A DNA stretch of 64,000 nt from NCBI GenBank assembly GCA_028825265.1, contig JAPKAM010000001.1, forward strand, positions 386 to 64,385, written 5' to 3'. The DNA comes from Planctomycetota bacterium. Lineage in GTDB: Bacteria > Planctomycetota > UBA8108 > UBA1146. Positions 13,531 through 61,996 of this stretch are shown here, one piece after another; within the stretch, counting starts at the first letter, position 1, and each line of letters opens with the position of its first letter. The notes beneath the pieces are model-generated. The model had not been told where the DNA came from. It saw nothing but the letters and a program-made list of their open reading frames with translations, and did not search any database. A program made the translations under genes and the position numbers.

Positions 13531-13653
13531 CAGATGCTCCTAGACGTACCTACAGCGGTAGAAGAGTATTTGACAGAGGGCCCTGCAACTGTGCCAAAAT
13601 CGCACATGCCCCCTCCCTAGGGCCCCATTCAAGCCTCTCCAGAGGCCCCTTTT

Positions 13654-13670
13654 TGGCACTGATGATGCTC
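13654..13670 (+). promoter_or_regulatory. Candidate sigma-54 promoter (TGGCAC-N5-ATGCT)
   Basis: TGGCACTGATGATGCTC. Perfect -24 hexamer TGGCAC at 13654-13659. GC at 13667-13668 is 10 nt after the GG. It is oriented toward the Kelch lipoprotein gene, ~450-530 nt away. Confidence 0.3.
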
Positions 13671-13730
13671 TCTATCAACTGGAGAGGGTCTTGCCGAGAG
13701 ATCGATTTGGAAATCGACTTTAGACAGCCT

Positions 13731-13870
13731 TCATCGACCTAGCAGCCATCGACCTAGCAGCCATCGACCTGGCGGCGACGGTGGACAGGGTTGCGCCGGA
13801 GAACTACAATCCGCCACTTGAGGAGAAGGTACTCCTGGAACTGAAGATACTCCTGGAACTAACGAGGAAC
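13731..13870. repeat. Short tandem repeats in an intergenic region
   Basis: AGCAGCCATCGACCT occurs in ~2.5 copies at 13735-13775. TACTCCTGGAACT x2 and GAACTAACG x2 occur at 13822-13870. Confidence 0.7.
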
Positions 13871-16018: not shown

Positions 16019-17141
16019 CTCGAAGCTGATCGACCGCTCACCTCATCGGCTTCCGGTGAAGTCCACCTCGAGGATTCGAGGATGGGGTCAATCGGGTCGC
16101 GTCCACAGCGCCATCCCCACCGTGCTCGCTCTGGTGGCTCTCGGCTGGGTGCTGGCGTACCTGTGGATCCCGACCCGATCACCTCAAACCAGCAGTCCCC
16201 AGACTGGGGTCACAGAAGTGATCCAGAAGAATCGATCGGGATCCCCGGCCACCGACTCCACCGGAACCACAGCTTCGGAAGCCCTCTCCCCACTCGACTC
16301 CCTCTCGCCGCAGATGAGAACCATTCGCGAGCAGTTGGACCGCTTGTTTCTTAAGACACAATGGAATCAAGCGATGGACGCGTCCACCGCTCACAGGGTG
16401 GCTCGAGCTCGTGAAGACCTGGAATCCTATCTCGATTCGCTCGCAGAAGAACATGTCCCGCTGCTGCTGGGCTTGCTGGCAGAAGAACCCGATTTCATCA
16501 ACCGCCGCTTCTTGCTTCGAGCGCTCGGGAAGATCGGGAACGATGAAGCTCTCGCAGGACTGCTGGATCATTTCAACTGGGCTGCAGGAAACTCCAAGGA
16601 AAGCGAAGTCAAGCACACCGTGGCGGCCCTCGCGGCAGCCAACAATGACCGATCTTTCCAGATTCTGAGCGACTACGCTGTCGCGGAGGAGACCGAAACC
16701 CACCGCTATCGATTTGTCGGTGCTCTCACCCAGCACTCGAGATCCGCCGATGCGATCGGGATCTACTCGGAGTTACTGACCGATTCTTCGCACTTCAGAG
16801 TGCGCCAGCGAGCCGCTTTTGGGATGAAGATCTCGGGCGGGATCGCACAGGCTCATGAGGTAGAAACAGCCCTTGTGGATGAGGGCAATCCATACGTTCG
16901 ACAATCATTCCTGGGGGCTCTCGGAGGCATACGAGATGTACGATCGGTTCCCCTGGTTAGCCGTATCCTGCAAGGGGATGAGGTTCTGGCCACCCGCGTC
17001 TCTGCAGTCAGGGCCTTGCTTCGCATCGAGGGAGATGCGGTGGTAGACGCCTTGAGGGCTGCCCGCGATGACATTTCTCAGCCACAGAGGGTCCACGAAG
17101 AAGTGCTCCGAGCCCTCGATTCGTTGGGAATCTCTGGCTAA
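15996..17141 (+). CDS. HEAT/PBS-lyase-type repeat protein with N-terminal membrane anchor
   Basis: TM segment IPTVLALVALGWVLAYLWI. Repeated ...RxxAxxALGxIG... units: RRFLLRALGKIGNDEAL, VRQRAAFGMKI, VRQSFLGALGGIRDVRSVPLVSRIL, RVSAVRALLRI. The start is uncertain (ATG 15996 overlaps the upstream gene; GTG 16057 is an alternative). Confidence 0.65.
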   Translation: MRRIRLRNSKLIDRSPHRLPVKSTSRIRGWGQSGRVHSAIPTVLALVALGWVLAYLWIPTRSPQTSSPQTGVTEVIQKNRSGSPATDSTGTTASEALSPLDSLSPQMRTIREQLDRLFLKTQWNQAMDASTAHRVARAREDLESYLDSLAEEHVPLLLGLLAEEPDFINRRFLLRALGKIGNDEALAGLLDHFNWAAGNSKESEVKHTVAALAAANNDRSFQILSDYAVAEETETHRYRFVGALTQHSRSADAIGIYSELLTDSSHFRVRQRAAFGMKISGGIAQAHEVETALVDEGNPYVRQSFLGALGGIRDVRSVPLVSRILQGDEVLATRVSAVRALLRIEGDAVVDALRAARDDISQPQRVHEEVLRALDSLGISG

Positions 17142-17256
17142 CGGGTCCGAGGCACTCTTGAGAATCGGCCGCTGCGATGTCACGATCCTACTCATGGCAG
17201 GACCCCGGTGCCTTCAGCACTGGATCACATCCCCAGAAGATGCAAGGAGAGGCTCG

Positions 17257-20122: not shown

Positions 20123-21865
20123 TTAGTTCCTCCCGCCAGTTCCAGTGATCGATTCCTTCAACTTCAACTTCAGGGTGACCTTTTTTCGATCTCCCGCAGG
20201 CTTGATGTCATCTTCGATGTTGAAGTATTTGGACTTCTGCTCCAGAGCCGTGATCACTCGCTCTCCGGCAGCGGCATCGGGAACCTCGAAGATCACGGTG
20301 GAGGTTCCGCCTCGTTTCTTGGCGCTATTGATCTCGATCGATTTCCAGGTCGGATAGACCTTGGGATTCGCTGCGGAGATCCCACCGGTCACATCCTTGA
20401 TCAGGTCCATTCCTGGTAAGTACTGCACAAGCCTTGCACGCTTATTGGCTCCCGTCCCGCCCTTCAATTCTGCGATCTTCAGTTCTGCACTTCGGACAAA
20501 TACAGGAGAAGAGCCCTTTGGAGCCTCTCCAAATCTAGCCATGAAGACGTCGCGTTCGTTGGCTCTCACCGTTTCAAACTCTGCTCGGCGGAGTTGCTTA
20601 CCTCGATGGCTATCGATCAACCAAGTCACGGACATGAAGCACAGGATCAAGCCCATCAACATCAGCCCCGGGAGCAACTTTGAAAATCTGCGCTCATACC
20701 GGTGCTCTTCTTTGCGTAAATCAAATCGAACTAATCCTTGCCCTGCAGACTGAAGCGCGAGTCCTACAGCCACACCTCCCGATAGGTTACAGCGATCGAC
20801 GAGATCCAGGGGCAATCCCGTTTCGATGCCGTCACAGACACGTAACTGCTGTGCGGGCACTTCATATTCCTCTGCCAAGCGATCTGCAATCCCCAGTTCA
20901 CAAGCGGCACCTCCGGCAACAACAATTCGATCGAGAGGCGATCTCATCAGGATTCCTGCAAAGGTCCGCTCGATCTCGGTGAATAATCGACCGATCACCT
21001 CATCGGGATCCGCTGGAGGAAGGGTTGGAGACGATGAGAGTTCCGCATTCAACCGCTCGAACTCTTCATCCGAAACCACCGCAATTGCGAGTTCATCTTC
21101 GGCGGCAGTTTCAGCAGCGACTCCTCCGCCTTGCATCAGATCTGCAAACTCCATCGCAGTCTCTGACTGGGCGCTGTCGGAACCACTAGCAGTCGCTCCG
21201 GCACTCCCGGTCGATGCAGTCGTCAGCGTCGGAATCGCGGAACGTTGGAGATGATTCGAGGTCGATCGAATCTTCGTGACCCTTCCTTCCTCTAGTAGGA
21301 CGAAGGTCGTATGGCCCGCTTCCATACCGATCAGAAGGGTCCTTCCGCCTCGCAGATCTGGCCTGGCTACATGAAGGGAAGTCGCCAGGGCCGTGGCATC
21401 GATCTCGATCTGGACCGGATCCACCCCACCTTCGCGAAGCATCTCCAGATGAGCTCCGACCAGTTGTTTCTGCACCGCACTGATCAGGAGCCGGCTCGAA
21501 TCTTCAGTTTCCGAACACTTGATGTATTCGATGACCAGATCATCGATGGAAGCCGAAGGAAGGTGCCCCTCGCTCTCGTACCGGATCGTCTTGGAAATGA
21601 CATCGTCATTTGTGAATGGAACCGATATCTCCCTCAAGGTAGACATACGGGTTGGGATGGAACTGACGACATCGATCGTCTTGCTTCCGTGACTATCTAG
21701 TGCACTACGAAGGATCGCTCGCAGAGACACGAGGCGCTCCTCGCTATTGTCTCCGACAATCTTTCCCTCGATGTAGTCGATGATGACGGTCTGTTTCGAA
21801 GTGGCTTCCACCACTGCGATCGAGACGTCAGGACCATCGATCTCTATTCCTGCGTGCAGGGCCAC
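20123..21865 (-). CDS. GspL-like protein (PilM-like cytoplasmic actin-fold domain + TM + PilN-like periplasmic domain)
   Basis: N-terminus MALHAGIEIDGPDVSIAVVE... (PilM/GspL cytoplasmic domain style). Internal TM LLPGLMLMGLILCFMSVTWLI. Gene order is gspK, (C-like), L-like, M-like. Confidence 0.6.
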   Translation of the reverse strand: MALHAGIEIDGPDVSIAVVEATSKQTVIIDYIEGKIVGDNSEERLVSLRAILRSALDSHGSKTIDVVSSIPTRMSTLREISVPFTNDDVISKTIRYESEGHLPSASIDDLVIEYIKCSETEDSSRLLISAVQKQLVGAHLEMLREGGVDPVQIEIDATALATSLHVARPDLRGGRTLLIGMEAGHTTFVLLEEGRVTKIRSTSNHLQRSAIPTLTTASTGSAGATASGSDSAQSETAMEFADLMQGGGVAAETAAEDELAIAVVSDEEFERLNAELSSSPTLPPADPDEVIGRLFTEIERTFAGILMRSPLDRIVVAGGAACELGIADRLAEEYEVPAQQLRVCDGIETGLPLDLVDRCNLSGGVAVGLALQSAGQGLVRFDLRKEEHRYERRFSKLLPGLMLMGLILCFMSVTWLIDSHRGKQLRRAEFETVRANERDVFMARFGEAPKGSSPVFVRSAELKIAELKGGTGANKRARLVQYLPGMDLIKDVTGGISAANPKVYPTWKSIEINSAKKRGGTSTVIFEVPDAAAGERVITALEQKSKYFNIEDDIKPAGDRKKVTLKLKLKESITGTGGRN

Positions 21866-23078: not shown

Positions 23079-24674
23079 TCATCGTCGTACTTCCTTCCAG
23101 GAAATCACAACAACATGCTGGCCTTTCCTAGCGCACACCATTCTACCCGAGAGAGAGCGATCCTCGCTCGTACCTTCGATGGTAGTGGTGAAAAAACTGC
23201 TAGAAAAGACAATATGATCCTCAAGGTCTTGCTGCAGAAGTGCGAATACTGACTCGTCTGAGCCACTGTCGTCTTGCCAAGTCTCATCGACCTGCTTTAG
23301 TTGCTCGAATCGGGAGAAATACTCGAATTGCTGCACTTCCTCCTCATCCACACCGAATTCGCTGAGGAGATCCTCGAGGATTTCCCCAGTCACGTCATCG
23401 ATCTCCTGCTGGTAACTATTGCAATGATCTCGAATCTGCCAGGCGATTTCCTTGGCCTCATCGAAGTCCTCGAAAGATCGAAGCATGGCCATCAGCACCT
23501 CAGGCCTGGCGGTATTGAGGTTGATCTTGCCCGATGAGTTTGCGGTCATGACATGTCGAAGACCGATGGGAGTCGGAATTTGATCCACTCCGCCATCGAG
23601 TAACTCGAACCCGGATGACTCCAGATCGTCGAATGATCCGGGAATCAGCGACTGTAAATCTTCCATCATTCCGGGGGAATCTTCCTGGTCGTATTGGTCC
23701 TCTTCTTCCAGCGTCGCCGGATCGATGGGGCCGTAGAACAGTTCCCAGGTGACTTCTTCCAGCTGACGGATCGTATCGAGACTGCGAATTCTACGCAGAT
23801 TTTCATCGAGAACCCGCTGGTGAACCATCGAGACGATCGCCTCTGCTGTGCCCCCTGGATCAGGAGTGTCGATGTAATCGAATCCATTTTCAGTGTTGAA
23901 ATCGATGACCGCCTCGATCAACCGCTCGAGAATCACTTGGGCCTCGTCCACTTCTTCTTGCTCGGGAGGCACGAACTCTTCTAGCAGCCCCGCTTCCTGC
24001 AGTAGCCCATCAATTGCAGCGTTGCCAGCGGCCGCTTCTTCGAGGGCATCGAGATCGCTGTCCTCTTCCTCGGGCAAGGCCGCGAGCGAGAAGATGTGAT
24101 TGAGATCGATACAGGATTCTCCGTCGACCACCACTCCAACGACCTGGACGCCATTGATGGTTTCCTGGATCGGATGAGCCCAGTTATCATGGTGGGTATC
24201 CACCGGGTCATCGTCAGATGGGTTTTCACCCGTACCACCCTGGCCTCCTCCTCCACCCGATCCGGGGAGAGTGAGTCCTCCGGGAAGTTGGGTTCCGACC
24301 CCTTCCCCTGCGGTATCCATTCCAGCCAGAGCATCCTCCTCGAGATCATCCTCGAGGTAACCAAGATCTTCCATCAGGTCGGTGGAGAGTTTCAGCAGCA
24401 CCTGGCGCCCCGAGGCCTGCAAGGCATAGGAAAGAGCCGTTCTTCCCTGCCGATTGCGCGAGATCCGTTCCTCGATTTTTGTGACGAAGATCAACTGGGT
24501 GATGACGACCGTCAGGACCAGCACCAGGATCAGCACCACGAACAACGCAATCCCCCCCTCGGGGGATCGTGTCGCATTCTCGCTGGCTCGCGGCGGCTGA
24601 ATCATCAGATCTCCGGTCATCGGTTCAATTTCAAACGGGTCCAATTCAAACGAGTCGACGAAGAGTTCCCTCAT
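23079..24674 (-). CDS. gspK: Minor pseudopilin GspK (long form with acidic insertion)
   Basis: Prepilin-like N-terminus without Glu+5 (GGIALFVVLILVLVLTVVITQLIFV). GspK hallmark INLNTARPEVLMAMLRSF (helix-hairpin-helix). 531 aa with a long D/E-rich insertion. Confidence 0.7.
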   Translation of the reverse strand: MRELFVDSFELDPFEIEPMTGDLMIQPPRASENATRSPEGGIALFVVLILVLVLTVVITQLIFVTKIEERISRNRQGRTALSYALQASGRQVLLKLSTDLMEDLGYLEDDLEEDALAGMDTAGEGVGTQLPGGLTLPGSGGGGGQGGTGENPSDDDPVDTHHDNWAHPIQETINGVQVVGVVVDGESCIDLNHIFSLAALPEEEDSDLDALEEAAAGNAAIDGLLQEAGLLEEFVPPEQEEVDEAQVILERLIEAVIDFNTENGFDYIDTPDPGGTAEAIVSMVHQRVLDENLRRIRSLDTIRQLEEVTWELFYGPIDPATLEEEDQYDQEDSPGMMEDLQSLIPGSFDDLESSGFELLDGGVDQIPTPIGLRHVMTANSSGKINLNTARPEVLMAMLRSFEDFDEAKEIAWQIRDHCNSYQQEIDDVTGEILEDLLSEFGVDEEEVQQFEYFSRFEQLKQVDETWQDDSGSDESVFALLQQDLEDHIVFSSSFFTTTIEGTSEDRSLSGRMVCARKGQHVVVISWKEVRR

Positions 24675-51397: not shown

Positions 51398-54144
51398 CTA
51401 GTGATCCCGTCCGGGGCTGGCTCTCAATGCTGGCTCTGCCGCGAATCCAGTCGGCGATTCGATACGAGTCACTTCCACCGCAGCCACTTTGAACTCGGGG
51501 GTTTCCGTGATGGGATCCACATCTGGATTGGTGATGTCGTTGGTCATCGTTTCCTCAGGAAAGGCGAAACTCATGAACATGGTCCCGCGAGGGGATGTCT
51601 TTGTGACGGTCACCCGAGTCATCACCTCGCCACGACGGGAGCGGATTTTTGCCCAGTCGCCATCTTCGAGTTTCAACTTCTCGGCATCCGCTGGATGAAC
51701 TTCGAGCCATTCATTGGGAACCAGGATCCGAAATCCGCTCGACCGCCCAGTCATGGTGTTGGTGTGATAGGTCGGCAAACGACGTCCTGTGGTCAGGTAG
51801 TAGGGATACTCATCGTCTGGATTCTCCGAAGGAGGGACATACTCCAGTAACTGCAACTTGCCCTTACCATTGACGAACTCATCCTCGTGCAACACGGGAG
51901 TTCCAGGGTGGTCGAGGTGAGGAACTGGCCATGCCAGATCTCCCGATTCGATCCGATCGTAATTGAGCCCCGCATAGATGGGAGACAAGGATGCCAGTTC
52001 ATCGAAGACCTCTTCGCTACTGGAATAGTCGAAATGAACTCCGCTTTCCATCCGCTTGGCGACTTCCGCAATGATCCACCAGTCCGCCTTTGCTTCTCCC
52101 GGCGGTACAGCCGCCTGCCTCAGGCGTTGCACACGACGATCCGAATTGGTGAAGAAGCCATCGACCTCAGTGAACGCTGCCGCAGGAAAGATCACATCTG
52201 CTTTTTCCGCCGTGTCAGTGAGAAACATGTCCTGAACAACGAGGAAATCCAGAGCTTCGAGAGCCTTGGTTGTGTGCTTGACATCAGGATCGGTGACCAG
52301 TGTGTTTTCGCCGACAATCCACATCGATTTGACTCGACCATCGACTGCATGATCGAGGGCTGCGATTTTTGTGATTCCATTTTTTGGGTCCATCGGAACA
52401 CCATAGGCCTTCTCGAATTTCAGCTGGCTCGCAGGATCATCGACCGCCTGGAATCCGGGGTAGTTGTTGGGCAATGCGCCGCAATCACCGGCTCCCTGGA
52501 TGTTGTTCTGGCCACGCAAGGGATTGACTCCAGCACTGCTCTTCCCCAGGTTTCCTGTGATCAGTGCTAGATTACAGAGGCTCTGTACATTTGAGACTCC
52601 GCAGATGTGCTCCGTGATTCCAAGGGTGTAATAAATTCCAGCTCGCTCTGCTGAACCATACGCGATGGCACATTCACGAATCAAATCTGCAGGAACCCCG
52701 GTGACTCCCTCGGCATATTCGGGCGTGAAGGGCACCAAGTGATCCTTCAATTGCTCGAATCCTTCGGTACGATTCTCGATGTAATCCAGATCTGCGAGCC
52801 CTTCCTGGATGATCACATTGGCCATCGCATTGAAGAGCGCGACATCGGAACCCAGTTTCAATGGCAAGTGCCCGGTGGCGTATTGTGTCAGCGGTATCTT
52901 TCGTGGATCGACCACGTAAAGCTTGGCACCCTTTCGAACCGCCTTCTTCACACGCACCGCGATGATCGGATGGCATTCGGTCATGTTGGTACCGACACAC
53001 AGCATCATCGGGCAATCCTCGATCTCGGGGATCGAGTTCGACATCGCTCCGCGTCCAATCGAGGCCGCCAGACCGGCGACCGTTGGACTGTGTCAGCCAC
53101 GCGAACAGTTGTCGATTTGATTCGAGTTCATCACTGCTCGAGTGAACTTCTGTAACATGTAGGCACTTTCGCCAGGAGCTCTACCACTGGCGATGGCGTA
53201 AAAGGCCTTGGGGCCATGGTCCGCCTTGATGCTCTTAAGGCGTGAAGCAGTATAGTCGAGCGCCTCGTTCCAGGAGACTGGAGTCAACTTCCCCTGCTTG
53301 CGAATCAGTGGCCTGGTCAGTCGGTCATCCGAGTTGACGAAATCAAACCCAAACTGTCCCTTCACGCACAACGCTCCGGCATTGACCGGGCCGCCGAGAA
53401 CCGGCGTGACTCCGATCATCTTTCCATCCCTTGAATGGAGATTGATGGAACAACCGGTACCACAATAGGGACACACACTTCGAGTGACTTCGATCTCACC
53501 AGGAACAGATCCCTGATTGACCATCTTCTTGTCAGCAAGAGCTCCGGTGGGACAGGTGTAGATGCATTGCCCGCAGAGCGTACAGTCGCTACCCATCAAG
53601 AGACCATCAAACGCGGTGGCGATGCCCTTGTTCCAACCACGGCCAGTCATGGTGATGGCATGATCCGCTTCCACTTCATCGCAGATTCGGACACATCGAT
53701 AGCAGGAGATGCATCGGTCGTAGTCTCGCAGCAGGAAGGGATTGGAATCATCCATCGAGGCGTTGCTGGTCGCTCCCAGGAAGCGATTGCGTCCAACCTT
53801 GAATTCTGTAGCCAGGTCGTGAACTTCACAACTTCCGAGATCCCTGCACCTCGGACACTCATCACCCGGGTTTTCCGAAAGCACCATCTCGACCAAGGTA
53901 CTCTGCATCTTCCGCAGTTTGTCACTGCCAGTGCGCACCACCATGCCTTCTGCGGCCCCCAGAGTGCAGGAAGAAGCGGGCATCCGATGGCCTTCCACTT
54001 CCACCACGCACAATCGACAGGAGCCAAAGGGCTCGAGCCGTTCATCCCAACAAAGGGTCGGAACAAAGGTCCCCAGACGCCGTGCCACTTCGAGCACCGT
54101 CTCGCCCTCCTGGAAGGTCACATCTTGACCATCGAGATTCATCT
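51398..54144 (-). CDS. fdhA: Selenocysteine-containing formate dehydrogenase catalytic subunit (FdhF/FdsA-like). N-terminal NuoG-like 2Fe-2S plus 4Fe-4S domains are fused to a Mo-bisPGD domain. The in-frame TGA (complement of 53093-53095) is read as Sec.
   Basis: The two track ORFs (53093..54217 and 51398..53044) are in the same frame, separated only by TGA. The translation across the junction is ...YMLQKFTRAVMNSNQIDNCSRG-U-HSPTVAGLAASIGRGAMSNSIPEIEDCPMMLCVGTNMTECHP... It aligns with E. coli FdhF ...VDCCARV-U-HGPSVAGL...GAMSNAINEID... N-terminus CRLCVVEV (2Fe-2S), CISCYRCVRICDE and CTLCGQCIYTCP (4Fe-4S), CPYCGTGCSINL (MopB 4Fe-4S). Start at ATG (complement of 54142-54144) with AAGGAG RBS. Confidence 0.85.
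53063..53092 (-). promoter_or_regulatory. Putative bacterial SECIS element immediately 3' of the UGA-Sec codon of fdhA
   Basis: mRNA: UGA-CACAGUCCAAC-GGUCGCC-GGUCU-GGCGGCC. 7-bp stem (with one G·U pair) and GGUCU apical loop begin 11 nt after UGA. This closely mirrors the E. coli fdhF SECIS (GGUUGCAGGUCUGCACC). Confidence 0.5.
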
Positions 54145-54149
54145 TCGAC

Positions 54150-55910
54150 TCACTCAACTGAATCTCCTTTTCCTGGGTTCTTCGCACTCTGCCCGTCGAT
54201 GTAGTCTTGCACGACATCCGGCCAGTACTTCTTCATCGTCCTGGTGATGAAGGGTGCAGCCAATCCAAGTCCACAGGCGCTGGTTTCTCCCAGCACCTCT
54301 TCCAAGTCTGCCAGTTCCTCCAGTGGATTGTCGCGAATCACCGGGTTCCCAGCGGAATGCTCGATCAATTCATCGAGCAACTCGGTAACCCTGACAGTAC
54401 CGATTCGGCAGGGAAAACACTTCCCGCACGATTCCTGCGCAAGGAAGTGCATACTCTCGCGCGCCGCTTGGATCATGCACCGAGTTTCATCGTGCACGAT
54501 GATCCCTCCGGCTCCGAGCATTGCGCCGAGTTCCGTCAAGGAACCTGGATCGAGCGCCACGTCGAGATCCGCGGCTCCGACGAACCCGCCGCTGATTCCC
54601 GCCATCGTCACACCCTGGATCGCTTTTCCATCGGGTGTTCCACCGGCGTAAGTTTGCAGGAGTTCTCGCAGCGAAGTCCCCACCGGGACCTCGTAATTTC
54701 CGGGGTGGGAGATATCTCCCGAAACGCTGAAGACTCGGGTTCCGGCATTTTCTCCCAACCCGAGTGCCTGGAACCAGGCTCCCCCTTTTTCAAGGATGGC
54801 AGGGACTGCACAGAAGGTCTCGACATTGTTGACCACTGTCGGCAGATCGAACAGTCCATGAGTGGTGGGGAAAGGAGGCTTCTCCCTCGGGAATGGGTGC
54901 TTGCCCTCCAGAGAGTTCAACAGTGAGGTCTCTTCACCACAGATGTAGGCTCCGGCTCCCCGACGGATGACAATCCGAAATGGCCGACCCGTTCCACAGA
55001 CATCATCTCCCAGCAGACCCGCCTGAGTGGCTTCGTCGATGGCGACCTGCAGTGATTCAAGGATTTCAGGGTATTCCCACCGAAGATATACGATGCCAAT
55101 CTTGGCACCGGTCACCAGGCCTGCACAGGCCATTCCCTCGAGCATTGCATGGGGACTATGAGCCATCAGAAGTCGATCCTTGAAACAACCGACCTCACTC
55201 TCGTCCGCGTTGCAAATGATGTACTTCGGCCCGCGGGTCTCGCTACGAACCGCTTCCCACTTCACGCCGGTGGGAAATCCTGCCCCCCCCCTGCCAGTGA
55301 GGCCGCTTTCATTCATCTGGGCGAGCACTTCCTGAGGATCGGAGGCGGCCAGTTTGGGGCTCTCCCAGGCTCCGTGGGAAAGCGCTCCAGCGAGGGTGTC
55401 GATTCCATCTCGAATGTCTCGGAAGAGACACTCTTCCAGACCTGTTTCGGGGGGAAGCGGCATCGTCGCAGCAGTCATATTTTCGACGGCACCGGCCCGG
55501 GCACCGTGGAAAAACTTCTCGCCGATCAGAATCGGAACCGGCATATCACATCGCCCCGGGCAGGAGATCTTCTCGACCTGGCCCGAATGTGCGACTCCCA
55601 GATCCACATCGACCACCTCCCTGGAAATGGCATCCAGATCATGAAGGCAGCAAGCCGAGTTCTCACAGATACGAATATCGGGGATCGGTTTCGGCTCCAG
55701 CTGGAAGTAGTGGTAGAAGGTGACGGTGCCATAGAGGTCGCTGATGGGGATCTTGAATCGCTCAGCCACCTGTCGGAGAGCAGGTTCTGGCAGATAACCA
55801 TGATGATCCTGGATCGCATGAAGCACCTCCAGGAACGGAGCCGGCTGCTCCATCAGGCGATCGAGAATCCCATCGGTGACCGGATCCTTGACCTCGATTC
55901 CCGTCTTCAT
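54150..55910 (-). CDS. Fused NuoE-like (2Fe-2S) / NuoF-like (FMN, NADH-binding, 4Fe-4S) diaphorase subunit of NAD(P)-linked formate dehydrogenase
   Basis: NuoE part: HAIQDHHGYLPEPALRQVAERFKIPISDLYGTVTFYHYF...ICENSACCLHD. NuoF part: GRGGAGFPTGVKWE, ESCGKCFPCRIGT. Immediately upstream of fdhA (5-nt gap). Confidence 0.85.
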   Translation of the reverse strand: MKTGIEVKDPVTDGILDRLMEQPAPFLEVLHAIQDHHGYLPEPALRQVAERFKIPISDLYGTVTFYHYFQLEPKPIPDIRICENSACCLHDLDAISREVVDVDLGVAHSGQVEKISCPGRCDMPVPILIGEKFFHGARAGAVENMTAATMPLPPETGLEECLFRDIRDGIDTLAGALSHGAWESPKLAASDPQEVLAQMNESGLTGRGGAGFPTGVKWEAVRSETRGPKYIICNADESEVGCFKDRLLMAHSPHAMLEGMACAGLVTGAKIGIVYLRWEYPEILESLQVAIDEATQAGLLGDDVCGTGRPFRIVIRRGAGAYICGEETSLLNSLEGKHPFPREKPPFPTTHGLFDLPTVVNNVETFCAVPAILEKGGAWFQALGLGENAGTRVFSVSGDISHPGNYEVPVGTSLRELLQTYAGGTPDGKAIQGVTMAGISGGFVGAADLDVALDPGSLTELGAMLGAGGIIVHDETRCMIQAARESMHFLAQESCGKCFPCRIGTVRVTELLDELIEHSAGNPVIRDNPLEELADLEEVLGETSACGLGLAAPFITRTMKKYWPDVVQDYIDGQSAKNPGKGDSVE

Positions 55911-56056: not shown

Positions 56057-56092
56057 AAAAAAGCGGCCCCGCTGCGTGTACAGCGGGGCCGC
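56057..56092 (-). terminator. Rho-independent terminator downstream of the S8-PKD protease gene
   Basis: 12-bp perfect inverted repeat GCGGCCCCGCTG / CAGCGGGGCCGC with a 6-nt loop. It is followed on the - strand by TTTTTT (AAAAAA at 56057-56062 on +). Confidence 0.6.
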
Positions 56093-56118: not shown

Positions 56119-59100
56119 TCAGCGAATCGAGAGTCCGTCGATATCCTCACTGGCGTTGATCCCGAGTGCACTCATATCGAGAATCAACTCTGCAAGCCCC
56201 GATGTCGCGCTTCCAAAACTACCGGTGAATCGCGAGACATCCTCGTCCGCACCGGCCGATCCCGAGGCGGAGTAAGATCCCTGGGTCGAGAAGAGCAAGG
56301 ATCCATCAAAATCGAGACTGATGGCATTGAGATCTTCACCACCGCTGTTGGAAAAACCAACATCACTCCCATCGAAGAAAGTGGTCCAGGAACCACCGCT
56401 GGCAGAGCCTACGGATGTGGGGGTGAAGAGCATCACATCTTCATCGCGGTTGGTCGGCCCACCGCCACGAGCCGTGCCCAGCGTCGACATCAACAAGGTG
56501 CCATCATCTAGATAACAAACCCCATCGATATCCTCACCGTTGGTCGTGAGTGCACAGTCCGAACCATCGAGGTAGAAGGACCATGAGCCCGCGCTGCTGG
56601 AGCCGGTCATGGTGGGCGTGAACAGAACCAGGTCACTATCTTCCACCGTGTTTCCGGAGGGCCCACCTATGAGTCCCGACAATGAGAACGAGCCGGAGTT
56701 AAAGGAAACCAGCACGCTACCATCCGCAAGGACGCTGAGAGCATTGATGTCGGTACTACCGATACCGACATCGCTACCGTCCAAATACCAGTCCCAGGAA
56801 TCGGTCGCTGGATCGTAGGTCACGATGTCTTCATCCCGAACCGTTCCCAGTCCAGGTACCGTGGTGGTCGACAGGAATGAGATGTAGTACAGCGTTGACG
56901 AAGGAGGCGGTGGGGGCGGCGGAGGAGGATCGGTCACAACGATGCAAGAGTTGCAAGTGACGGTGTCAGAGCCCCCCGGTCCGGTCACCGTCAAACTCAC
57001 GGTGTAGGTCCCGGCACTGGTATAGGTGTGCGACGGGTTCAGTGCCGACGATCCATTTCCATCACCAAAGTCCCACGAGTAACCGGTGATGTCTCCGATC
57101 GACGAATTACTGAAGGAGACGGTCACCGGCGCTTCGCCCCCCGATGAATCGTGGATGAAGCCAGCCACCGGAGCGGGTGGCGGCGGCGGCGGATCGGTCA
57201 CCACGATGCACGAGTTACAGGTCGCGGTGTCCGAGCCCCCCGGTCCAGTCGCCGTCAGGGTCACGGTGTAGGTGCCTGCACTGGTATAGGTGTGCGATGG
57301 GTTCTGCGCGGTCGAGGCGCCGCCATCGCCAAAGGTCCACGAGTATCCACTGATATCTCCCGTCGACGAATTGCTGAAGGAGACGGTCACCGGTGCTTCA
57401 CCACCGGAGGAATCGGCCGAGAAACCGGCCACCGGAGCGGTCGGCGGGGGTGGCGGCGGATCGGTCACCACGATGCACGAGCCACAAGTTGCCGTGTCGG
57501 AGCCCCCCGCGCCGGTGGCGGTCAAGGTCACGGTGTAGGTGCCAGCACTGGTGTAGGTGTGCGACGGGTTCAGTGCCGTCGAGCCCCCTCCATCGCCAAA
57601 GTCCCACGAGTATCCGCTGATGTCTCCGGTCGACGAATTATTGAAGGAGACGGTCACCGGTGCTTCACCACCGGATGAACTGGGCGTGAAGCCCGCCGCC
57701 GGTGGTGGCGGTGGCGGATCGGTCACCACGATGCACGAGCCACAAGTTGCCGTGTCCGAACCCCCCGGACCGGTCACCGTCAAGATCACGGTGTAGGTGC
57801 CAGCACTGCTATAGGTGTGCGACGGATTCTGCGCCGTCGATGCGCCACCATCGCCAAAGGTCCACGAGAATCCACTGATGTCTCCGGTCGACGAATTGCT
57901 GAAGGAGACGCTCACCGGCGCTTCTCCGCCGGATGAACTGGGCGTGAAGCCCGCCACCGGTGGTGGCGGCGGCGGATCGGTCACCACGATGCACGAGTTA
58001 CAGGTTGCGGTGTTGGAGCCCCCCGGTCCAGTTGCGGTCAAGGTCACCGTGTAGGTGCCCGCACTGGTGTAACTGTGGGACGGGTTCAGTGCCGTCGATC
58101 CACCCCCGTCGCCGAAGTTCCACAAATAGCCGGTGATGTCTCCGGTCGACGAATTACTGAAGGAAACAGTCACCGGCGCTTCACCACTGGTCGGCGATGG
58201 CACGAAGCCGGCTACCGGTGCGGGAGGAGGGGGCGGGGGTGATCCGATGAAGCAATTGAGGATCGCACCGACCAGACCTGCCCGGGTCGATGCGCCATCG
58301 ACGAGCCCACCGATCTCGAATGAAGTTCCGAAGGTACGATAGGTGCCGGCATCATTGAACACCCCGACATCGTAGGCTGCAGTCGGATTGGTCAGGGTGA
58401 CCACTGCACTGCCCGTCGTTCCGAGACGATCGATCCAACTGTTCTCACCGCTATAGCTCCAACTACTGCCCACAAGGCTGCAGCCGGCTCCGGCGGCTCC
58501 GTTAACGGTCGAAAGGTCACTGGTTCCATCGGACAGTCCGCTGATCCCAAAGTGCGAATGAACCGCGGTCGCACTGTCGTAGGCCCAGGTATCGCCTCCC
58601 TCCATGTAGAGGAAGGATCCACCGACACCATTGGTCAGGTAGGTCTCGAGAGTGGTGCCCTCTGCGGCCGACAGTACATGGCCCGATGGGTAAATGCCCA
58701 GATTGACCCAGACCGTCTCGAAGGCGTCGAGACTCGCGACGGCATCGAGGGTGGTGACCACCAGTGGCGAACGACCATTGGCGGTGAGTGCCGCAGAGAT
58801 GGCACTTCCCCCCGCCACGGCACCGCCCGCTGCCGATGGAGCCCAGACCAGATCGGTCGCTCCTCCGGTGAGGAAAATGGAGCAACTGACCTGAGGACTT
58901 TGGTCCGAGCCGACGAAGCCTCGAACTCCGTAGGAGATGTTTCCCACTCCTGCGGCGGAATCGGTGTACGAGGTGGCAGATCCGGAAAGAGTGGCGATGA
59001 CGCTACCGCCGCGGCTCACCTGTACCTGTGAATAACTCTCGCCATTGGTCCAAGAGAGGAGCGCATCGGCACCGGAGCTGCTACAGCTGAGATTGGTCGG

Positions 59101-60720
59101 CGCGCTCACGGAACTCGCCACCGTCAGCAGCAACGCCTCGCAGTTGATCCGTCCGTAGCCCATGTATTGATCAAAACCGGCCGTATCTTCCGAGGGCGGC
59201 CCAACTTGGTCATCAGCGGTCTGTCGCATGTAAGTTCGAACTTGATCGTGGGTCAAGCCCGGCGCCACCGCCAGCAACAGTGCTCCAGCACCCGCAGCGT
59301 GAGGGGTGGCCGAAGATGTACCGTTGAAACTGGAAGTGTAGTCGGTTGAAGAGTAGCCACCGCTGCCGGAGATATCGACGGTGGTCGTCAACGGACCCGG
59401 TGCGACAAAGTCGAGAGCAGATCCGTAGTTACTGCCCCACCAGGTTTCTCCATCGCAAGACGATGGACTCTTGCGTTCATCACAGGGGCTGGAAGCACCC
59501 ACGGCGATCGCTTCTGGATAGAGTGCCGGATAAGAGACCGCAGAGTTGTCATTCCCTGAAGCGAAGAAAACCGGGCAACCCAGTCCCCCTCTTCCGTTGG
59601 TGTTGCCGTAAGCGACCGCATTCTGGATGGCGCTACTGGCCGATCCTCCCCCCCAGCTATTGGAGAGAACATCCGCACCATGGTCGACCGGCCAGGTCAG
59701 TCCATCGACGAGCCAATCGGTCTGAGTCCAGAAACTTCCGAATCCGATGCGCACCGGCATGATCTTGCTGTTCCACGTGACACCCGTGACACCGATTCCG
59801 TTGTTTCCCACCGCTGCGATGATGCCTGCACAGCAGGTTCCATGGCCGTCTGTGGAGTTGGCATTTCCGGGGATCCCTCCCGGTGTGGGGTCAGCAGTGA
59901 CGGCATCGTAGCCCGCCACCATGTTGGCTTGCAGGTCCGCATGATTCACATCGACACCTTCGTCGATGACCGCCACCACGATGCTCGAAGAACCGGTCGA
60001 GATGTCCCAGGCGGCGGCGGCTTTCATGTCCGCACCGATGGTGCCGCCGGTTTGTCCGGTATTCTGCATGTCCCACTGATCTGGGAAGAGCGGATCGTTA
60101 GGAGTCGCCATTTCTGGCAAATCGTGGATAAAATTGGGCTCCGCAACCCAGACTTCCTCCAGTTGCGTCAGGGCGTCAGAGATTTCGAAACCGAGCGATG
60201 TGGGTCCATCGAAACCCAGCATGTAGGTCGGATCGATGGCCGGAAACTCCCTGAGAAAGCGCAGTCCTGACTGTCGAATCACGCTTCGGATCTCATCAGC
60301 GTCGACCGAACCATCGAAAGTCACGATGACTTCCGGCCGTGGAATCATGACCGCTTCTTGGTACCCGAGGACCGGGCCGGCAAACTCGACGACGGCCGCA
60401 CTCGATAGTTGTGCGAGGATCTCTTGCTGCATCCTTGCATCGACTCGCTTCTCGAGAGGGACGTACCACAGTCCAGGGTACTCCTGCAGGTCCTTTTCAC
60501 TGACCTTGCCGACTCCTCGGATCGATCGCAGTTCGGCCCGCAGGGAACCCAACTCATCTTCCAGTCCGTCGATCATCTTGACCGCAACGATCCCATCCAC
60601 CTGAACCAGGGATGCTCGTCCTTCTCCGTAGGGATAGGACCACTTCTGCCCTGTCTCCTGAGCGCTGGAAAGAAGGGGGGAAAACAGCACAAAGAGCAGT
60701 GCCGGGAAAATTCGAAGCAT
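56119..60720 (-). CDS. Giant secreted subtilisin-like serine protease (S8) with 5 tandem PKD domains and a C-terminal triple-repeat domain of unknown function
   Basis: Signal peptide MLRIFPALLFVLFSPLLSSAQE (start at complement of 60718-60720, AGGAGG RBS 5 nt upstream; an in-frame ATG 15 nt further upstream is an alternative). S8 triad regions VAVIDEGVDVNHADL (Asp), HGTCCAGIIAA (His), GTSSATPHAAGAGALL (Ser). Five ~88-aa PKD repeats (...EAPVTVSFSNSSTGDISGYSWTFGDGG.STA.NPSHTY.SAGTYTVTLTATGPGGSDTATC.SCIVVT) are separated by poly-Pro linkers. Confidence 0.85.
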   Translation of the reverse strand: MLRIFPALLFVLFSPLLSSAQETGQKWSYPYGEGRASLVQVDGIVAVKMIDGLEDELGSLRAELRSIRGVGKVSEKDLQEYPGLWYVPLEKRVDARMQQEILAQLSSAAVVEFAGPVLGYQEAVMIPRPEVIVTFDGSVDADEIRSVIRQSGLRFLREFPAIDPTYMLGFDGPTSLGFEISDALTQLEEVWVAEPNFIHDLPEMATPNDPLFPDQWDMQNTGQTGGTIGADMKAAAAWDISTGSSSIVVAVIDEGVDVNHADLQANMVAGYDAVTADPTPGGIPGNANSTDGHGTCCAGIIAAVGNNGIGVTGVTWNSKIMPVRIGFGSFWTQTDWLVDGLTWPVDHGADVLSNSWGGGSASSAIQNAVAYGNTNGRGGLGCPVFFASGNDNSAVSYPALYPEAIAVGASSPCDERKSPSSCDGETWWGSNYGSALDFVAPGPLTTTVDISGSGGYSSTDYTSSFNGTSSATPHAAGAGALLLAVAPGLTHDQVRTYMRQTADDQVGPPSEDTAGFDQYMGYGRINCEALLLTVASSVSAPTNLSCSSSGADALLSWTNGESYSQVQVSRGGSVIATLSGSATSYTDSAAGVGNISYGVRGFVGSDQSPQVSCSIFLTGGATDLVWAPSAAGGAVAGGSAISAALTANGRSPLVVTTLDAVASLDAFETVWVNLGIYPSGHVLSAAEGTTLETYLTNGVGGSFLYMEGGDTWAYDSATAVHSHFGISGLSDGTSDLSTVNGAAGAGCSLVGSSWSYSGENSWIDRLGTTGSAVVTLTNPTAAYDVGVFNDAGTYRTFGTSFEIGGLVDGASTRAGLVGAILNCFIGSPPPPPPAPVAGFVPSPTSGEAPVTVSFSNSSTGDITGYLWNFGDGGGSTALNPSHSYTSAGTYTVTLTATGPGGSNTATCNSCIVVTDPPPPPPVAGFTPSSSGGEAPVSVSFSNSSTGDISGFSWTFGDGGASTAQNPSHTYSSAGTYTVILTVTGPGGSDTATCGSCIVVTDPPPPPPAAGFTPSSSGGEAPVTVSFNNSSTGDISGYSWDFGDGGGSTALNPSHTYTSAGTYTVTLTATGAGGSDTATCGSCIVVTDPPPPPPTAPVAGFSADSSGGEAPVTVSFSNSSTGDISGYSWTFGDGGASTAQNPSHTYTSAGTYTVTLTATGPGGSDTATCNSCIVVTDPPPPPPAPVAGFIHDSSGGEAPVTVSFSNSSIGDITGYSWDFGDGNGSSALNPSHTYTSAGTYTVSLTVTGPGGSDTVTCNSCIVVTDPPPPPPPPPSSTLYYISFLSTTTVPGLGTVRDEDIVTYDPATDSWDWYLDGSDVGIGSTDINALSVLADGSVLVSFNSGSFSLSGLIGGPSGNTVEDSDLVLFTPTMTGSSSAGSWSFYLDGSDCALTTNGEDIDGVCYLDDGTLLMSTLGTARGGGPTNRDEDVMLFTPTSVGSASGGSWTTFFDGSDVGFSNSGGEDLNAISLDFDGSLLFSTQGSYSASGSAGADEDVSRFTGSFGSATSGLAELILDMSALGINASEDIDGLSIR
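56930..58250. repeat. Five near-identical ~264-bp tandem DNA repeats (encoding PKD domains plus PPPPPP linkers)
   Basis: Strong DNA periodicity. The + strand shadow ORFs at 57086, 57290, 57557, 57815 and 58133 have near-identical sequences (…SPVDELLKETVTGASPP…GGGGGG…). Confidence 0.85.
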
Positions 60721-60955
60721 AAGTTCCTCCTGCATTCGGCGATGCCGAAAACCAACTCGGGAGTCCCGAGTCATGACATGACGGGGCAAATCAAAAGAAC
60801 CCAATCTCGCAGGCGGGAGCGAGGAACGAGCAGTTTGATCGAGAGAATCGACCACATCAACCATGTGCCTTCCTCCTCGAGGATGGGCTATCCTGCCACA
60901 GTGAATTCTGTAGGACTCTTTGGAAACAACCCAACATCTCGATGAAGGAGCACTG

Positions 60956-61996
60956 ATGAATACCCTGATCGTATTGATCACAATTATGGCCACGGCTGTC
61001 CCGACAATGGACGATTCATCTCCATGGCTCACCTTCAATGGCACCAAGGGCGCGGGAGTGGGAAAGCACATCGTATTGATCACGGGCGATGAGGAGTACC
61101 GATCGGAACAAGGGATGCCCCAGATGGCTCAGGTCCTCGCCAAGCACCACGGCTTCCGCTGCACGGTCCTCTTTTCCATCGATCCCGAAACCGGTTGTAT
61201 AGATCCGCAGGTCAATGACAACATTCCCGGAATGGAGCTCATCGATGGAGCCGACCTGGTGATTCTCTTCACCCGCTTCCGAAATCTTCCAGACGAACAG
61301 ATGAAACACTTCGTCAATTTCGTCAATTCGGGCAAACCTGTGATCGGACTACGAACATCGACTCACGCCTTCGATATCCCGGGTGACCGGGAGTATCACC
61401 GCTGGTCGTGGCGGAATGGCCAGTGGGACGGCGGGTTTGGACGCCAGGTGATGGGTGAGACATGGATCGATCATCATGGAGGCCATGGCTGGCAAAGTAG
61501 TAGCGGCATCATCGTCGAAGGGGCCAGCGATCATCCGATCCTCCAGGGGATCAAGAACGGCGATGTCTGGGACCCTTCCGATGTCTACACGGTACGGTTA
61601 CCACTCCCCAAGGGCTGCACCCCTCTATTGAACGGTCGAGTGCTGTCGGGGATGGACCCCGATGACGGACCCTGTGAGGTGGAGAAGAAAGACGACCAGA
61701 CCACATTCGACAAGAACGATCCGATGATGCCGATCGCCTGGACCCATGTACGCCGATCTGAAAGCGGCAAGAAGCAGCGGGTCTTCTCCTCGACCTTTGG
61801 AGCATCGCGTTCCTTTACCCGGGAAGGCTCGAGAAGGCTGCTGGTCAACGCCTGCTACTGGTGCCTCGGCATGCAGGGGCAGATCAAACCGAACTTGACG
61901 GTCGATCTGGTCGGCGACTATCAACCGACCCAGTTCGGATTCGGCAAGCACACCCCCGATCTGAAGCCAGCGGACATGGTCAAGACGGCTCAATGA
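60956..61996 (+). CDS. ThuA-like (trehalose-utilisation / class-I glutamine amidotransferase-like) protein
   Basis: HIVLITGDEEYRSEQGMPQMAQVLAKHHGFRCTVLFS...ELIDGADLVILFTRFRNLPDEQMKHFVNFVNSGKPVIGLRTSTHAF is the ThuA family pattern. AAGGAG RBS before ATG 60956. Confidence 0.75.
   Translation: MNTLIVLITIMATAVPTMDDSSPWLTFNGTKGAGVGKHIVLITGDEEYRSEQGMPQMAQVLAKHHGFRCTVLFSIDPETGCIDPQVNDNIPGMELIDGADLVILFTRFRNLPDEQMKHFVNFVNSGKPVIGLRTSTHAFDIPGDREYHRWSWRNGQWDGGFGRQVMGETWIDHHGGHGWQSSSGIIVEGASDHPILQGIKNGDVWDPSDVYTVRLPLPKGCTPLLNGRVLSGMDPDDGPCEVEKKDDQTTFDKNDPMMPIAWTHVRRSESGKKQRVFSSTFGASRSFTREGSRRLLVNACYWCLGMQGQIKPNLTVDLVGDYQPTQFGFGKHTPDLKPADMVKTAQ

What the first reader, a model, noticed from the sequence alone, without database searches (positions are those of the whole stretch)
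56119..60720. 1500+-aa secreted subtilisin with five near-identical PKD domains
An S8 protease (Asp/His/Ser triad regions intact, signal peptide) is fused to 5 PKD repeats. The repeats are >85% identical at protein level and highly similar in DNA, and are separated by poly-proline hinges. This pattern is typical of surface or secreted degradative enzymes and is a plausible T2SS substrate. The near-identical 264-bp DNA repeats risk assembly collapse, so the true copy number may differ.
Basis: partly seen in the sequence, partly recalled or inferred. Interest (0 to 1): 0.55.

Follow-up and report, generated by a model that had tools for sequence, protein, structure and literature searches.

The report
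Secreted planctomycete subtilase with PKD stalk

Summary
The gene is real: window 56119..60720, minus strand, 1533 aa. It has a Shine-Dalgarno site, a Sec-type signal peptide and its own terminator. An S8 catalytic domain (D253/H293/N390/S469; closest solved relative mirolase) and five PKD domains separated by Pro6-9 linkers are confirmed.

Two details are overstated. The PKD units are 79-87% identical as protein (mean 84%) and 78-89% as DNA (mean 82%). Their period is 258-267 bp, and the longest exact run shared by any two units is 39 nt. Three related MAG assemblies are colinear with five copies, so collapse here is unlikely. Orthologues in other clades carry 1-7 copies, and some contigs break at the array.

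- a 185-aa pro-region;
- a disulphide-bearing beta-sandwich;
- a GATase1-like domain with no invariant Cys, so no candidate nucleophile;

Most likely this is an extracellular degradative protease on a long stalk tipped by a binding module. Type II secretion is possible but untestable here. It is a new member of a known kind, of modest interest.

The parts
56119..60720 (-). Complete coding sequence, 1533 aa plus stop codon (56119-56121)
   Evidence: ORF list. Start chosen from the candidate list. Orthologues start at the equivalent Met.
60726..60731 (-). Shine-Dalgarno AGGAGG, 5 nt before the ATG
   Evidence: Upstream sequence GCAGGAGGAACTT-ATG.
60661..60720 (-). Signal peptide, aa 1-20 (MLRIFPALLFVLFSPLLSSA | QE)
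   Evidence: Read directly from the sequence. The A|Q(E/D) site is conserved in orthologues. No predictor was run.
60106..60660 (-). N-terminal pro-region, aa 21-205; presumed propeptide, fold not identified
   Evidence: Conserved across the family at 23-92% identity. No Pfam hit at E<=10. No PDB hit by sequence or by profile.
59119..60105 (-). S8 (subtilase) catalytic domain, aa 206-534. Catalytic codons: D253 (59962-59964), H293 (59842-59844), oxyanion N390 (59551-59553), S469 (59314-59316).
   Evidence: Pfam PF00082, 173.6 bits. Alignment to mirolase 8ehe (E 3e-50), thermitase and subtilisins. Residue positions.
58873..59118 (-). Beta-sandwich domain, aa 535-616 ('SWTNG..Y' type), with invariant C546 and C613
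   Evidence: No Pfam hit. A profile search of the PDB gives only weak Fn3-like and YesW matches (E 0.0015-0.05). The same unit recurs 264 times in 65 family proteins. Two Cys and one Trp are invariant.
58240..58872 (-). GATase1-like (ThuA / GH42-M-like) alpha/beta domain, aa 617-827, with no invariant Cys to serve as nucleophile
56929..58239 (-). Five [Pro6 linker + PKD] units: aa 828-915 (57976-58239), 916-1001 (57718-57975), 1002-1087 (57460-57717), 1088-1176 (57193-57459), 1177-1264 (56929-57192)
   Evidence: Pfam PKD_4 and PKD, five stretches each. TRF array. Unit boundaries and identities.
56902..56928 (-). Pro9 linker, aa 1265-1273
56122..56901 (-). C-terminal four-bladed beta-propeller, aa 1274-1533. 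Blades at about 1294-1358, 1359-1424, 1425-1490 and 1491-1533; the last blade is closed by the N-terminal strand 1274-1293.
56063..56092 (-). Intrinsic-terminator-like hairpin (13 bp, 11 G-C) followed by T6, 27 nt after the stop codon
   Evidence: The overall count of terminator-like sites is no higher than in shuffles, but this is by far the strongest site and is correctly placed.

Best explanation
The gene encodes a pre-pro subtilase (peptidase family S8, subtilisin-type, not kexin-type) of an uncultured marine Planctomycetota lineage (the 'UBA1146' group).

Shown:
- It is a monocistronic gene with a ribosome-binding site and a terminator.
- It has an intact Asp-His-Ser triad and oxyanion Asn.
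- The modules run in this order: signal peptide, 185-aa pro-region, S8 domain, beta-sandwich, GATase1-like domain, five PKD domains each preceded by a Pro6 run, a Pro9 run, and a terminal four-bladed beta-propeller.

Inferred:
- The protein is exported by Sec and the pro-region is removed.
- The beta-sandwich and the GATase1-like domain always accompany this catalytic domain. They probably form a rigid non-catalytic 'head' with it.
- The PKD/polyproline array acts as an extended, semi-rigid stalk. From standard dimensions of PKD domains and polyproline-II helices it would be very roughly 30 nm long. Its length is tuned by gain and loss of units (1-7 in orthologues).
- The terminal propeller is a binding module, probably Ca2+-stabilised given its repeated DxD and DGSD motifs. 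It would hold the enzyme on a particulate or polymeric substrate, or on the cell's own surface.
- The job is extracellular breakdown of proteinaceous organic matter for uptake.
For: - Gene structure.
- S8 domain and catalytic residues. The best solved relatives are secreted degradative subtilases: mirolase, thermitase and deseasin MCP-01.
- PKD array and linkers.
- GATase1-like fold at high model confidence, with no invariant Cys inside the domain. This domain is found only behind this S8 lineage among the retrieved homologues.
- Propeller.
- The propeller family occurs in 1-5 copies per protein, at C-terminal, internal and N-terminal positions. It sits next to PKD, cadherin-like, Ig-like and CBM modules, in proteins attributed to Planctomycetota, Chloroflexota, Acidimicrobiia, cyanobacteria and one haloarchaeal MAG. 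That pattern fits a binding module rather than a sorting signal.
- Invariant Cys pairs in the accessory domains fit an oxidising, extracellular location.
- Orthologues keep the architecture and the neighbouring genes while varying only the PKD number.
- In MCP-01 the PKD domain binds and swells collagen and raises the efficiency of the catalytic domain (PMC11294657, read).
Against: - Nothing here is experimental. Activity, substrate, export route and processing are all inferred.
- The pro-region matches no known propeptide family.
- The signal peptide was judged by eye.
- The roles of the GATase1-like domain and of the propeller are guesses from fold and context. Some PKD and PPC domains of other proteases do not bind substrate at all (PMC11294657).
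Confidence: 0.7

Rival explanations
1. Cell-surface-tethered protease. The terminal propeller binds the cell's own envelope (glycan or protein), and the PKD/polyproline stalk holds the catalytic head away from the surface. The enzyme is not released.
For: - A paralogous S8 family in the same MAGs keeps the same catalytic core but ends in a dockerin-like Ca-binding module instead of the propeller. Such modules typically dock enzymes onto cell-bound scaffolds, which suggests that the C-terminal position is used for attachment.
- In most hits the propeller is the last domain and stops within a few residues of the C-terminus.
Against: - The propeller family also occurs internally, N-terminally and in up to five copies per protein.
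- It occurs in organisms with very different envelopes. A dedicated self-envelope anchor would be hard to reconcile with that spread.
- No transmembrane segment, lipobox, LPXTG, PEP-CTERM or T9SS C-terminal domain is present.
Confidence: 0.3
2. The protein crosses the outer membrane through the type II secretion-like system encoded at 4.6-13.7 kb of the same window.
For: - The protein has a Sec signal peptide.
- The window encodes a Secretin_N protein, a secretin, a GspE-type ATPase, a GspF-type platform protein and three N-methyl pilin-like proteins.
- Large folded multi-domain hydrolases are typical T2SS cargo (established knowledge).
Against: - The cluster is about 45 kb away, separated by unrelated genes.
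- It cannot be told apart from a type IV pilus system with the data in hand. PilM-like and PilX-like ORFs lie nearby.
- T2SS cargo carries no recognisable sequence signal.
Confidence: 0.3
3. A specific processing protease that matures a defined partner, in the manner of mycosins or site-1 protease, rather than a broad degradative enzyme.
For: - The best NCBIfam hit is the mycosin model (135.8 bits).
Against: - The mycosin score is far below that model's cut-off of 278.75.
- The neighbours are a ThuA-like gene and a formate dehydrogenase/NuoF operon. No candidate substrate or secretion partner is adjacent.
- The gene is monocistronic.
- The closest solved relatives are broad-specificity secreted proteases.
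Confidence: 0.1
4. The five-copy array is an assembly artefact, either collapsed or expanded.
For: Tandem repeats are a known assembly hazard. Related contigs L003, L005, L008 and L015 end at or within the array.
Against: - Units are only 78-89% identical in DNA, and the longest shared exact run is 39 nt.
- The reading frame is intact through all units.
- L001, L002 and L004 come from three other assemblies and are colinear with the window across the array. L001 and L002 read five PKD units.
- The P0002 cluster (1534 aa, five PKD) is recorded on 41 contigs.
Confidence: 0.05

Closest known systems
Mirolase (Tannerella forsythia subtilase, PDB 8ehe) and thermitase-type S8A subtilases
   Same: Closest solved catalytic domains (E 3e-50 and 5e-31). 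The Asp, His, Ser and oxyanion-Asn motifs are the same, and the 'DPLFPDQW' N-terminal segment of the mature enzyme is shared. These are secreted degradative enzymes.
   Different: None of these carries the beta-sandwich plus GATase1-like pair, a five-PKD stalk or a terminal propeller. From my own knowledge, mirolase is exported by a type IX C-terminal domain, and no such domain is present here.
Deseasin MCP-01 (Pseudoalteromonas sp. SM9913; PDB 3vv3), a marine collagenolytic S8 protease with a C-terminal PKD domain
   Same: An S8 catalytic domain (E 1.9e-29) followed by PKD, from a marine bacterium. It has a proposed role in degrading particulate organic nitrogen, and its PKD domain helps with insoluble substrate (PMC11294657).
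   Different: MCP-01 has a P-proprotein-convertase domain and a single PKD domain. This protein has no P-domain hit, five PKD domains separated by polyproline linkers, and two further modules. Collagenolysis is untested here.
Matrix metalloproteinases (catalytic domain, linker, hemopexin domain)
   Different: - The catalytic class is unrelated (zinc metalloprotease versus serine protease).
- The blades here are about 65 aa and look Kelch-like to Foldseek.
- This is a resemblance of architecture, not evidence of common descent.
GATase1-like non-catalytic domains (GH42 beta-galactosidase middle domain, ThuA-like proteins, Planctomyces limnophilus 3rht)
   Different: No sequence-level relationship is detectable: no Pfam hit, and hhalign against the neighbouring ThuA-like gene gives a probability of 0.5%. 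No Cys inside the domain is invariant, so glutaminase chemistry is not expected.
Paralogous planctomycete S8 family (for example P0022-P0058, L023-L031)
   Same: Shares the pro-region, S8 domain, beta-sandwich and GATase1-like domain at 42-54% identity in the latter. It is present in the same MAGs.
   Different: After the core it carries 7-13 copies of the beta-sandwich, few or no PKD domains, and a dockerin-like cysteine-rich C-terminus in place of the propeller.

Membership tests
Peptidase family S8 (subtilases), subtilisin-type | Match to the family profile above the curated threshold | tested here: met
   PF00082: 173.6 bits against a cut-off of 21.8, covering profile positions 2-288 of 288.
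Peptidase family S8 (subtilases), subtilisin-type | Catalytic triad in the order Asp-His-Ser within the conserved motifs, plus the oxyanion-hole Asn | tested here: met
   D253 (VIDEG), H293 (GHGTCCAG), N390 (FASGND) and S469 (NGTSSATP) align column for column with mirolase 8ehe.
Peptidase family S8 (subtilases), subtilisin-type | Not kexin-type: no P-domain after the catalytic domain, and closer to subtilisins than to furin | tested here: met
   No P_proprotein hit. Mirolase, thermitase and subtilisins score E 1e-50 to 1e-27, against about 4e-19 for furin. A MEROPS subfamily assignment was not run.
Peptidase family S8 (subtilases), subtilisin-type | N-terminal propeptide of the I9 type acting as folding chaperone and inhibitor | tested here: inconclusive
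   A conserved 185-aa N-terminal region exists. It matches no Pfam family at E<=10 and no PDB chain by sequence or by profile.
Peptidase family S8 (subtilases), subtilisin-type | Proteolytic activity | not testable with these tools
   Requires expression and an enzyme assay.
PKD domain (PF00801 / PF18911) | Profile match above threshold, counted per repeat | tested here: met
   Five stretches for each model, E 1.1e-94 and 4.9e-68. The WxFGDG motif is present in all five units.
Hemopexin-like repeat family (PF00045; MMP, hemopexin and vitronectin propellers) | Sequence match to the hemopexin repeat profile | tested here: not met
Hemopexin-like repeat family (PF00045; MMP, hemopexin and vitronectin propellers) | Four-bladed beta-propeller fold | tested here: inconclusive
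   - There are four sequence repeats with circular closure, and the AF2 model is confident.
- Foldseek instead ranks six-bladed Kelch propellers first, with TM 0.3-0.4.
- The topology is similar, but membership is not shown.
Class I glutamine amidotransferase (GATase1) superfamily | GATase1 alpha/beta fold | tested here: met
Class I glutamine amidotransferase (GATase1) superfamily | Conserved nucleophilic Cys of the Cys-His-Glu triad | tested here: not met
   Alignment A2 has no invariant or nearly invariant Cys inside the domain. The only such Cys, C613, belongs to the preceding beta-sandwich. I read the strongly conserved segment LYxEGGDTW (E, G and W invariant; Y, D and T nearly so) as a possible counterpart of the nucleophile elbow, but no structural superposition was inspected.
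Type II secretion substrates | Sec or Tat signal peptide, and a T2SS in the same genome | tested here: met
   Signal peptide by inspection. Secretin, GspE-like, GspF-like and pilin-like genes lie at 4.6-13.7 kb, although these could equally encode a type IV pilus system.
Type II secretion substrates | Secretion that depends on the T2SS | not testable with these tools
   No sequence signature exists. This needs genetics and exoproteomics.

The most novel reading that the evidence does not exclude
The C-terminal 260-aa module may define a previously undescribed, widespread domain family.
- A profile search found about 4,460 representatives (clusters at 50% identity) at E<=1e-3, and about 2,000 at E<=1e-30.
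- No Pfam or NCBIfam model covers it.
- The model is a four-bladed propeller with hemopexin-like topology and a conserved acidic motif in each blade.
- It would serve as a terminal or repeated binding module on extracellular multi-domain proteins of Planctomycetota, Chloroflexota, Actinomycetota, cyanobacteria and possibly archaea.

On this reading the subtilase is a bacterial serine-protease analogue of the matrix-metalloproteinase design: a catalytic head, a linker and a four-bladed propeller exosite.
Probability: 0.4. Interest if true: 0.5.

Novelty: new member of a known kind. Interest (0 to 1): 0.3.

Why it matters
Large secreted subtilases with PKD arrays are a common tool of marine heterotrophs for attacking particulate protein, so the gene itself does not change any picture.

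Three things are worth keeping:
1. This is a worked example showing that a tandem array at 82% DNA identity is not an assembly-collapse problem. Copy number nevertheless varies from 1 to 7 between related lineages, and the array does break contigs.
2. About half of this protein, and of dozens of relatives, consists of conserved domains that current profile libraries do not name.
3. One of those domains, the four-bladed propeller, belongs to a family of thousands of extracellular proteins. It would merit a curated family model and a binding study.

Tried and rejected
I therefore could not see how UniProt entries carrying the propeller are annotated.
- Foldseek against the PDB gave only blade-level matches to six-bladed Kelch and designer propellers (TM 0.3-0.4). 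This does not identify the domain.
- Sequence and profile searches of the PDB for the pro-region found nothing.
- For the beta-sandwich, the single-sequence search gave only non-significant nanobody matches. The profile search gave weak Fn3-like and YesW matches (E 0.0015-0.05), plus spurious short matches to designer WD40 proteins. It is therefore labelled 'beta-sandwich, Fn3-like at best'.
- I tested whether the adjacent, divergently transcribed ThuA-like gene (60920..61996) is related to the internal GATase1-like domain. It is not: hhalign probability 0.5%.
- No second copy of the propeller, the GATase1-like domain or the beta-sandwich exists elsewhere in the window.
- The sigma-70 promoter scan was uninformative: one weak site, on the wrong strand.
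- Literature searches found no description of this architecture or of the propeller family. The S1P/SPRING structure paper did not say which S1P domain has the GATase1-like fold.
- I considered that the + strand ORFs inside the array (for example 57151..57678) might be genes. I rejected this: they lie antisense to a strongly supported coding region and have no support of their own.
Full report
**The gene.** A single long ORF lies on the minus strand and ends at 56119. The mechanical ORF starts at a GTG at 61083, but several lines point to ATG 60720 as the real start:
- It is preceded by AGGAGG with a 5-nt spacer.
- It opens directly onto a signal-peptide-like sequence.
- Orthologues in other assemblies start at this position.
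- The upstream extension would overlap the divergently oriented ThuA-like gene at 60920..61996.

The product is 1533 aa. A strong hairpin of 13 bp (11 G-C) followed by T6 sits 27 nt after the stop codon, at 56063-56092. The next gene downstream is a NuoF-like subunit of a formate dehydrogenase operon. The protease gene is therefore its own transcription unit.

**Checking the observation.** Most of it holds.
- Pfam finds Peptidase_S8 at aa 245-523 (173.6 bits). It finds five copies each of PKD_4 (E 1e-94) and PKD (E 5e-68).
- Against solved structures the catalytic region is closest to mirolase 8ehe (E 3e-50), then thermitase (5e-31), deseasin MCP-01 (2e-29) and the subtilisins. Furin is much weaker, at about 4e-19.
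- In the printed alignment the motifs around D253, H293, N390 and S469 match mirolase column for column.
- No NCBIfam equivalog is reached. The best, mycosin, scores 135.8 bits against a cut-off of 278.75.
- The N-terminus MLRIFPALLFVLFSPLLSSA|QE has a basic n-region, a 14-residue hydrophobic core and small residues at -3 and -1. The A|Q(E/D) junction is conserved in orthologues. This was judged by eye.
- Six proline runs (five of six residues, one of nine) lie exactly at the borders of the PKD units.

**What was overstated.**
- The five units (86-89 aa) are 79-87% identical as protein (mean 84%). Only four of ten pairs reach 85%.
- They are 78-89% identical as DNA (mean 82%), with lengths of 258, 258, 258, 264 and 267 bp.
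- TRF agrees: period 258, 4.9 copies, 82% matches.
- The longest exact run shared by any two units is 39 nt. Differences are spread over both synonymous and non-synonymous codons: 13-26 and 9-17 of 80 codons per pair.

These are clearly diverged copies, not near-identical ones.

**Copy number.**
- The closest public relatives are about 85% identical in DNA and 91-94% in protein. They come from MAGs of the Planctomycetota 'UBA1146' lineage.
- L001, L002 and L004 come from three different assemblies and align colinearly with the window through the whole array. L001 and L002 read five PKD units, and L002 gives a complete 1534-aa protein. The L004 reading frame is interrupted upstream of the array at aa 797.
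- The P0002 cluster (1534 aa, five PKD) is recorded on 41 contigs.
- Collapse in this window is therefore very unlikely.

Two qualifications apply.
- More distant orthologues with the same overall architecture and the same neighbours have 1, 3, 4, 5, 6 or 7 PKD units.
- Several related contigs end at the start of, or inside, the array (L003, L005, L008, L015).

A unit in the window is no closer to the unit at the same position in P0001 or P0002 (82-90%) than to units at other positions (73-88%). The rest of the protein is 91-92% identical. This suggests homogenisation or turnover within arrays.

Four stretches, about 740 aa in total, have no Pfam hit even at E<=10.

1. *Pro-region, aa 21-205.* It is conserved across the family. 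It matches nothing in the PDB by sequence or by profile. I call it a presumed propeptide from its position only.

2. *Beta-sandwich, aa 535-616.* This is an approximately 80-aa unit with an invariant Trp and two invariant Cys, C546 and C613. The same unit recurs 264 times in 65 family proteins, up to 13 times in one protein. A profile search of the PDB gives only weak Fn3-like and YesW matches (E 0.0015-0.05).

3. *GATase1-like domain, aa 617-827.*
   - With an alignment of 31 family sequences, AlphaFold2 gives pLDDT 91.6 and pTM 0.90.
   - The family alignment has no invariant or nearly invariant Cys inside the domain. The defining nucleophile is therefore absent, and I treat the domain as non-catalytic.
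   - Among the retrieved homologues this domain occurs only behind this S8 lineage.

4. *C-terminal propeller, aa 1274-1533.*
   - With 49 sequences, AlphaFold2 gives an all-beta model with pLDDT 94.8 and pTM 0.92.
   - The sequence contains four repeats of about 65 aa, 29-51% identical. Each begins with D-(E/S)-D and, in the first three repeats, carries a DGSD motif. The fourth repeat is completed by the N-terminal strand, the usual 'velcro' closure of propellers.
   - Foldseek instead ranks six-bladed Kelch and designer propellers, with poor global scores (TM 0.3-0.4). I read this as Kelch-like blades arranged in a four-bladed ring that no solved structure reproduces well.
   - The family is large. 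A profile search of 1.84 billion representatives finds 4,462 proteins at E<=1e-3 and 2,015 at E<=1e-30. Proteins carry one to five copies, at C-terminal, internal or N-terminal positions.
   - Named hits come from Planctomycetota, Phycisphaerales, Chloroflexota, Acidimicrobiia, a cyanobacterium and one Halobacteriales MAG. Partner domains include PKD, cadherin-like, Ig-like, CBM and ASPIC/UnbV.
   - Eight further members scanned against Pfam have no family over this region.
   - P0060 joins the same propeller and five PKD domains to a different S8 catalytic domain. The module is therefore mobile.

**Context.**
- The neighbours are conserved in related MAGs at 70-85% DNA identity. They are a ThuA-like gene on one side and, on the other, a NuoF-like gene followed by a formate dehydrogenase alpha subunit.
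- Neither neighbour suggests a functional partner.
- A secretin/GspE/GspF/pilin-like cluster lies at 4.6-13.7 kb, about 45 kb from the protease.
- The same MAGs also carry a paralogous S8 (44-49% identity). It has the same core followed by arrays of the beta-sandwich and a dockerin-like C-terminus.

**How it most likely works.**

*Shown:* an intact subtilisin-type active site; a signal peptide-like N-terminus; the module order; paired cysteines in the accessory domains; variation of stalk length between orthologues.

*Inferred:*
- Export is by Sec and the pro-region is removed.
- The catalytic domain, beta-sandwich and GATase1-like domain form a compact head.
- The five PKD domains and their polyproline linkers form a stalk, very roughly 30 nm long from standard domain and PPII dimensions.
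- The terminal propeller is a binding module, probably stabilised by Ca2+ at its repeated acidic motifs.

The best-studied analogue is deseasin MCP-01. Its single PKD domain binds and swells collagen and makes the catalytic domain more efficient. However, PKD and PPC domains of some other proteases do not bind substrate (PMC11294657).

I cannot decide whether the propeller binds substrate or the cell's own surface. The distribution of the domain favours a general binding module: many positions, many copies and very different cell envelopes. The dockerin-like ending of the paralogues keeps tethering alive as a rival.

Secretion through the T2SS-like system is possible but untestable here.

**Verdict.** The finding is real and correctly located. 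Its biological reading is broadly right. The 'near-identical repeats / assembly collapse' concern does not hold for this window. The gene is a new member of a well-known kind, with orthologues already in public databases under generic names ('PKD domain-containing protein', 'S8 family serine peptidase'). The only part with some novelty is the unannotated four-bladed propeller family, which gives an MMP-like 'protease plus propeller' layout in a bacterial serine protease.

Noticed in passing
window 51398..54217 (-), TGA at 53093-53095: The formate dehydrogenase alpha subunit (2Fe-2S, 4Fe-4S, molybdopterin domains) is one reading frame interrupted by a single in-frame TGA, inside the motif NCSRG-[TGA]-HSPTVAGL. 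From my own recollection this is where formate dehydrogenases carry selenocysteine or Cys, so a selenocysteine codon is likely. A hairpin starts 8 nt downstream but folds no better than shuffled sequence (z -0.54). There is no tRNA gene in the window.
   Followed up: partly
window 4662..13742 (+); also 20123..21865 (-) and 23079..24674 (-): A type II secretion / type IV pilus-like cluster. It comprises a Secretin_N protein, a secretin, a GspE/PilB-type ATPase, a GspF/PilC-type platform protein and three ORFs with N-terminal methylation motifs. PilM_2-like and PilX_N-like ORFs lie nearby on the other strand. I did not resolve whether it is a T2SS or a pilus system.
   Followed up: partly
L003, L005, L008, L015 (related MAG contigs): These contigs end at the start of, or inside, the PKD array of the orthologous gene. 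The array breaks assemblies even though it is resolved in this window.
   Followed up: partly
L004, around locus 12267-12275 (window 58454-58511): The orthologue in MAG 'bin110s' (93% identical) has its reading frame stopped at aa 797, with an alignment break at this point. This is a frameshift or pseudogene, or an assembly error. The same MAG also has a separate 3-kb contig (L003) carrying a second copy of the 5' part of the gene.
   Followed up: no
L023-L031; proteins P0022-P0058: The same MAGs carry a paralogous S8 family. After the shared core (pro-region, S8, beta-sandwich, GATase1-like domain) it has 7-13 copies of an unannotated 'SWTNG..Y' beta-sandwich. It ends in a dockerin-like module, F(I/V)RGDxNxDG ... 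CGxDPTxDxLxC. In P0019 and P0020 that module sits at the N-terminus instead.
   Followed up: partly
P0009 / L016 ('Proteobacteria bacterium'); L008 and L023 ('Bacillota bacterium MAG 7'): Orthologues 70-83% identical to the Planctomycetota copies sit in bins labelled as other phyla. These are most likely binning or labelling errors rather than horizontal transfer.
   Followed up: no
window 14117..19401 (+): Two large Kelch-repeat ORFs (633 and 777 aa) flank a HEAT-repeat ORF. This is another set of propeller proteins, unrelated in sequence to the C-terminal propeller of the protease.
   Followed up: no
window 56018-56058 versus L002 14666-15566: The closest complete relative has about 900 bp of extra sequence between the protease terminator region and the NuoF-like gene. 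This sequence is absent from the window.
   Followed up: no
window 60920..61996 (+): The divergently transcribed neighbour is a ThuA-like protein (PF06283, just above the cut-off). It has the same broad fold class as the protease's internal GATase1-like domain, but no detectable sequence relationship to it (hhalign probability 0.5%).
   Followed up: yes
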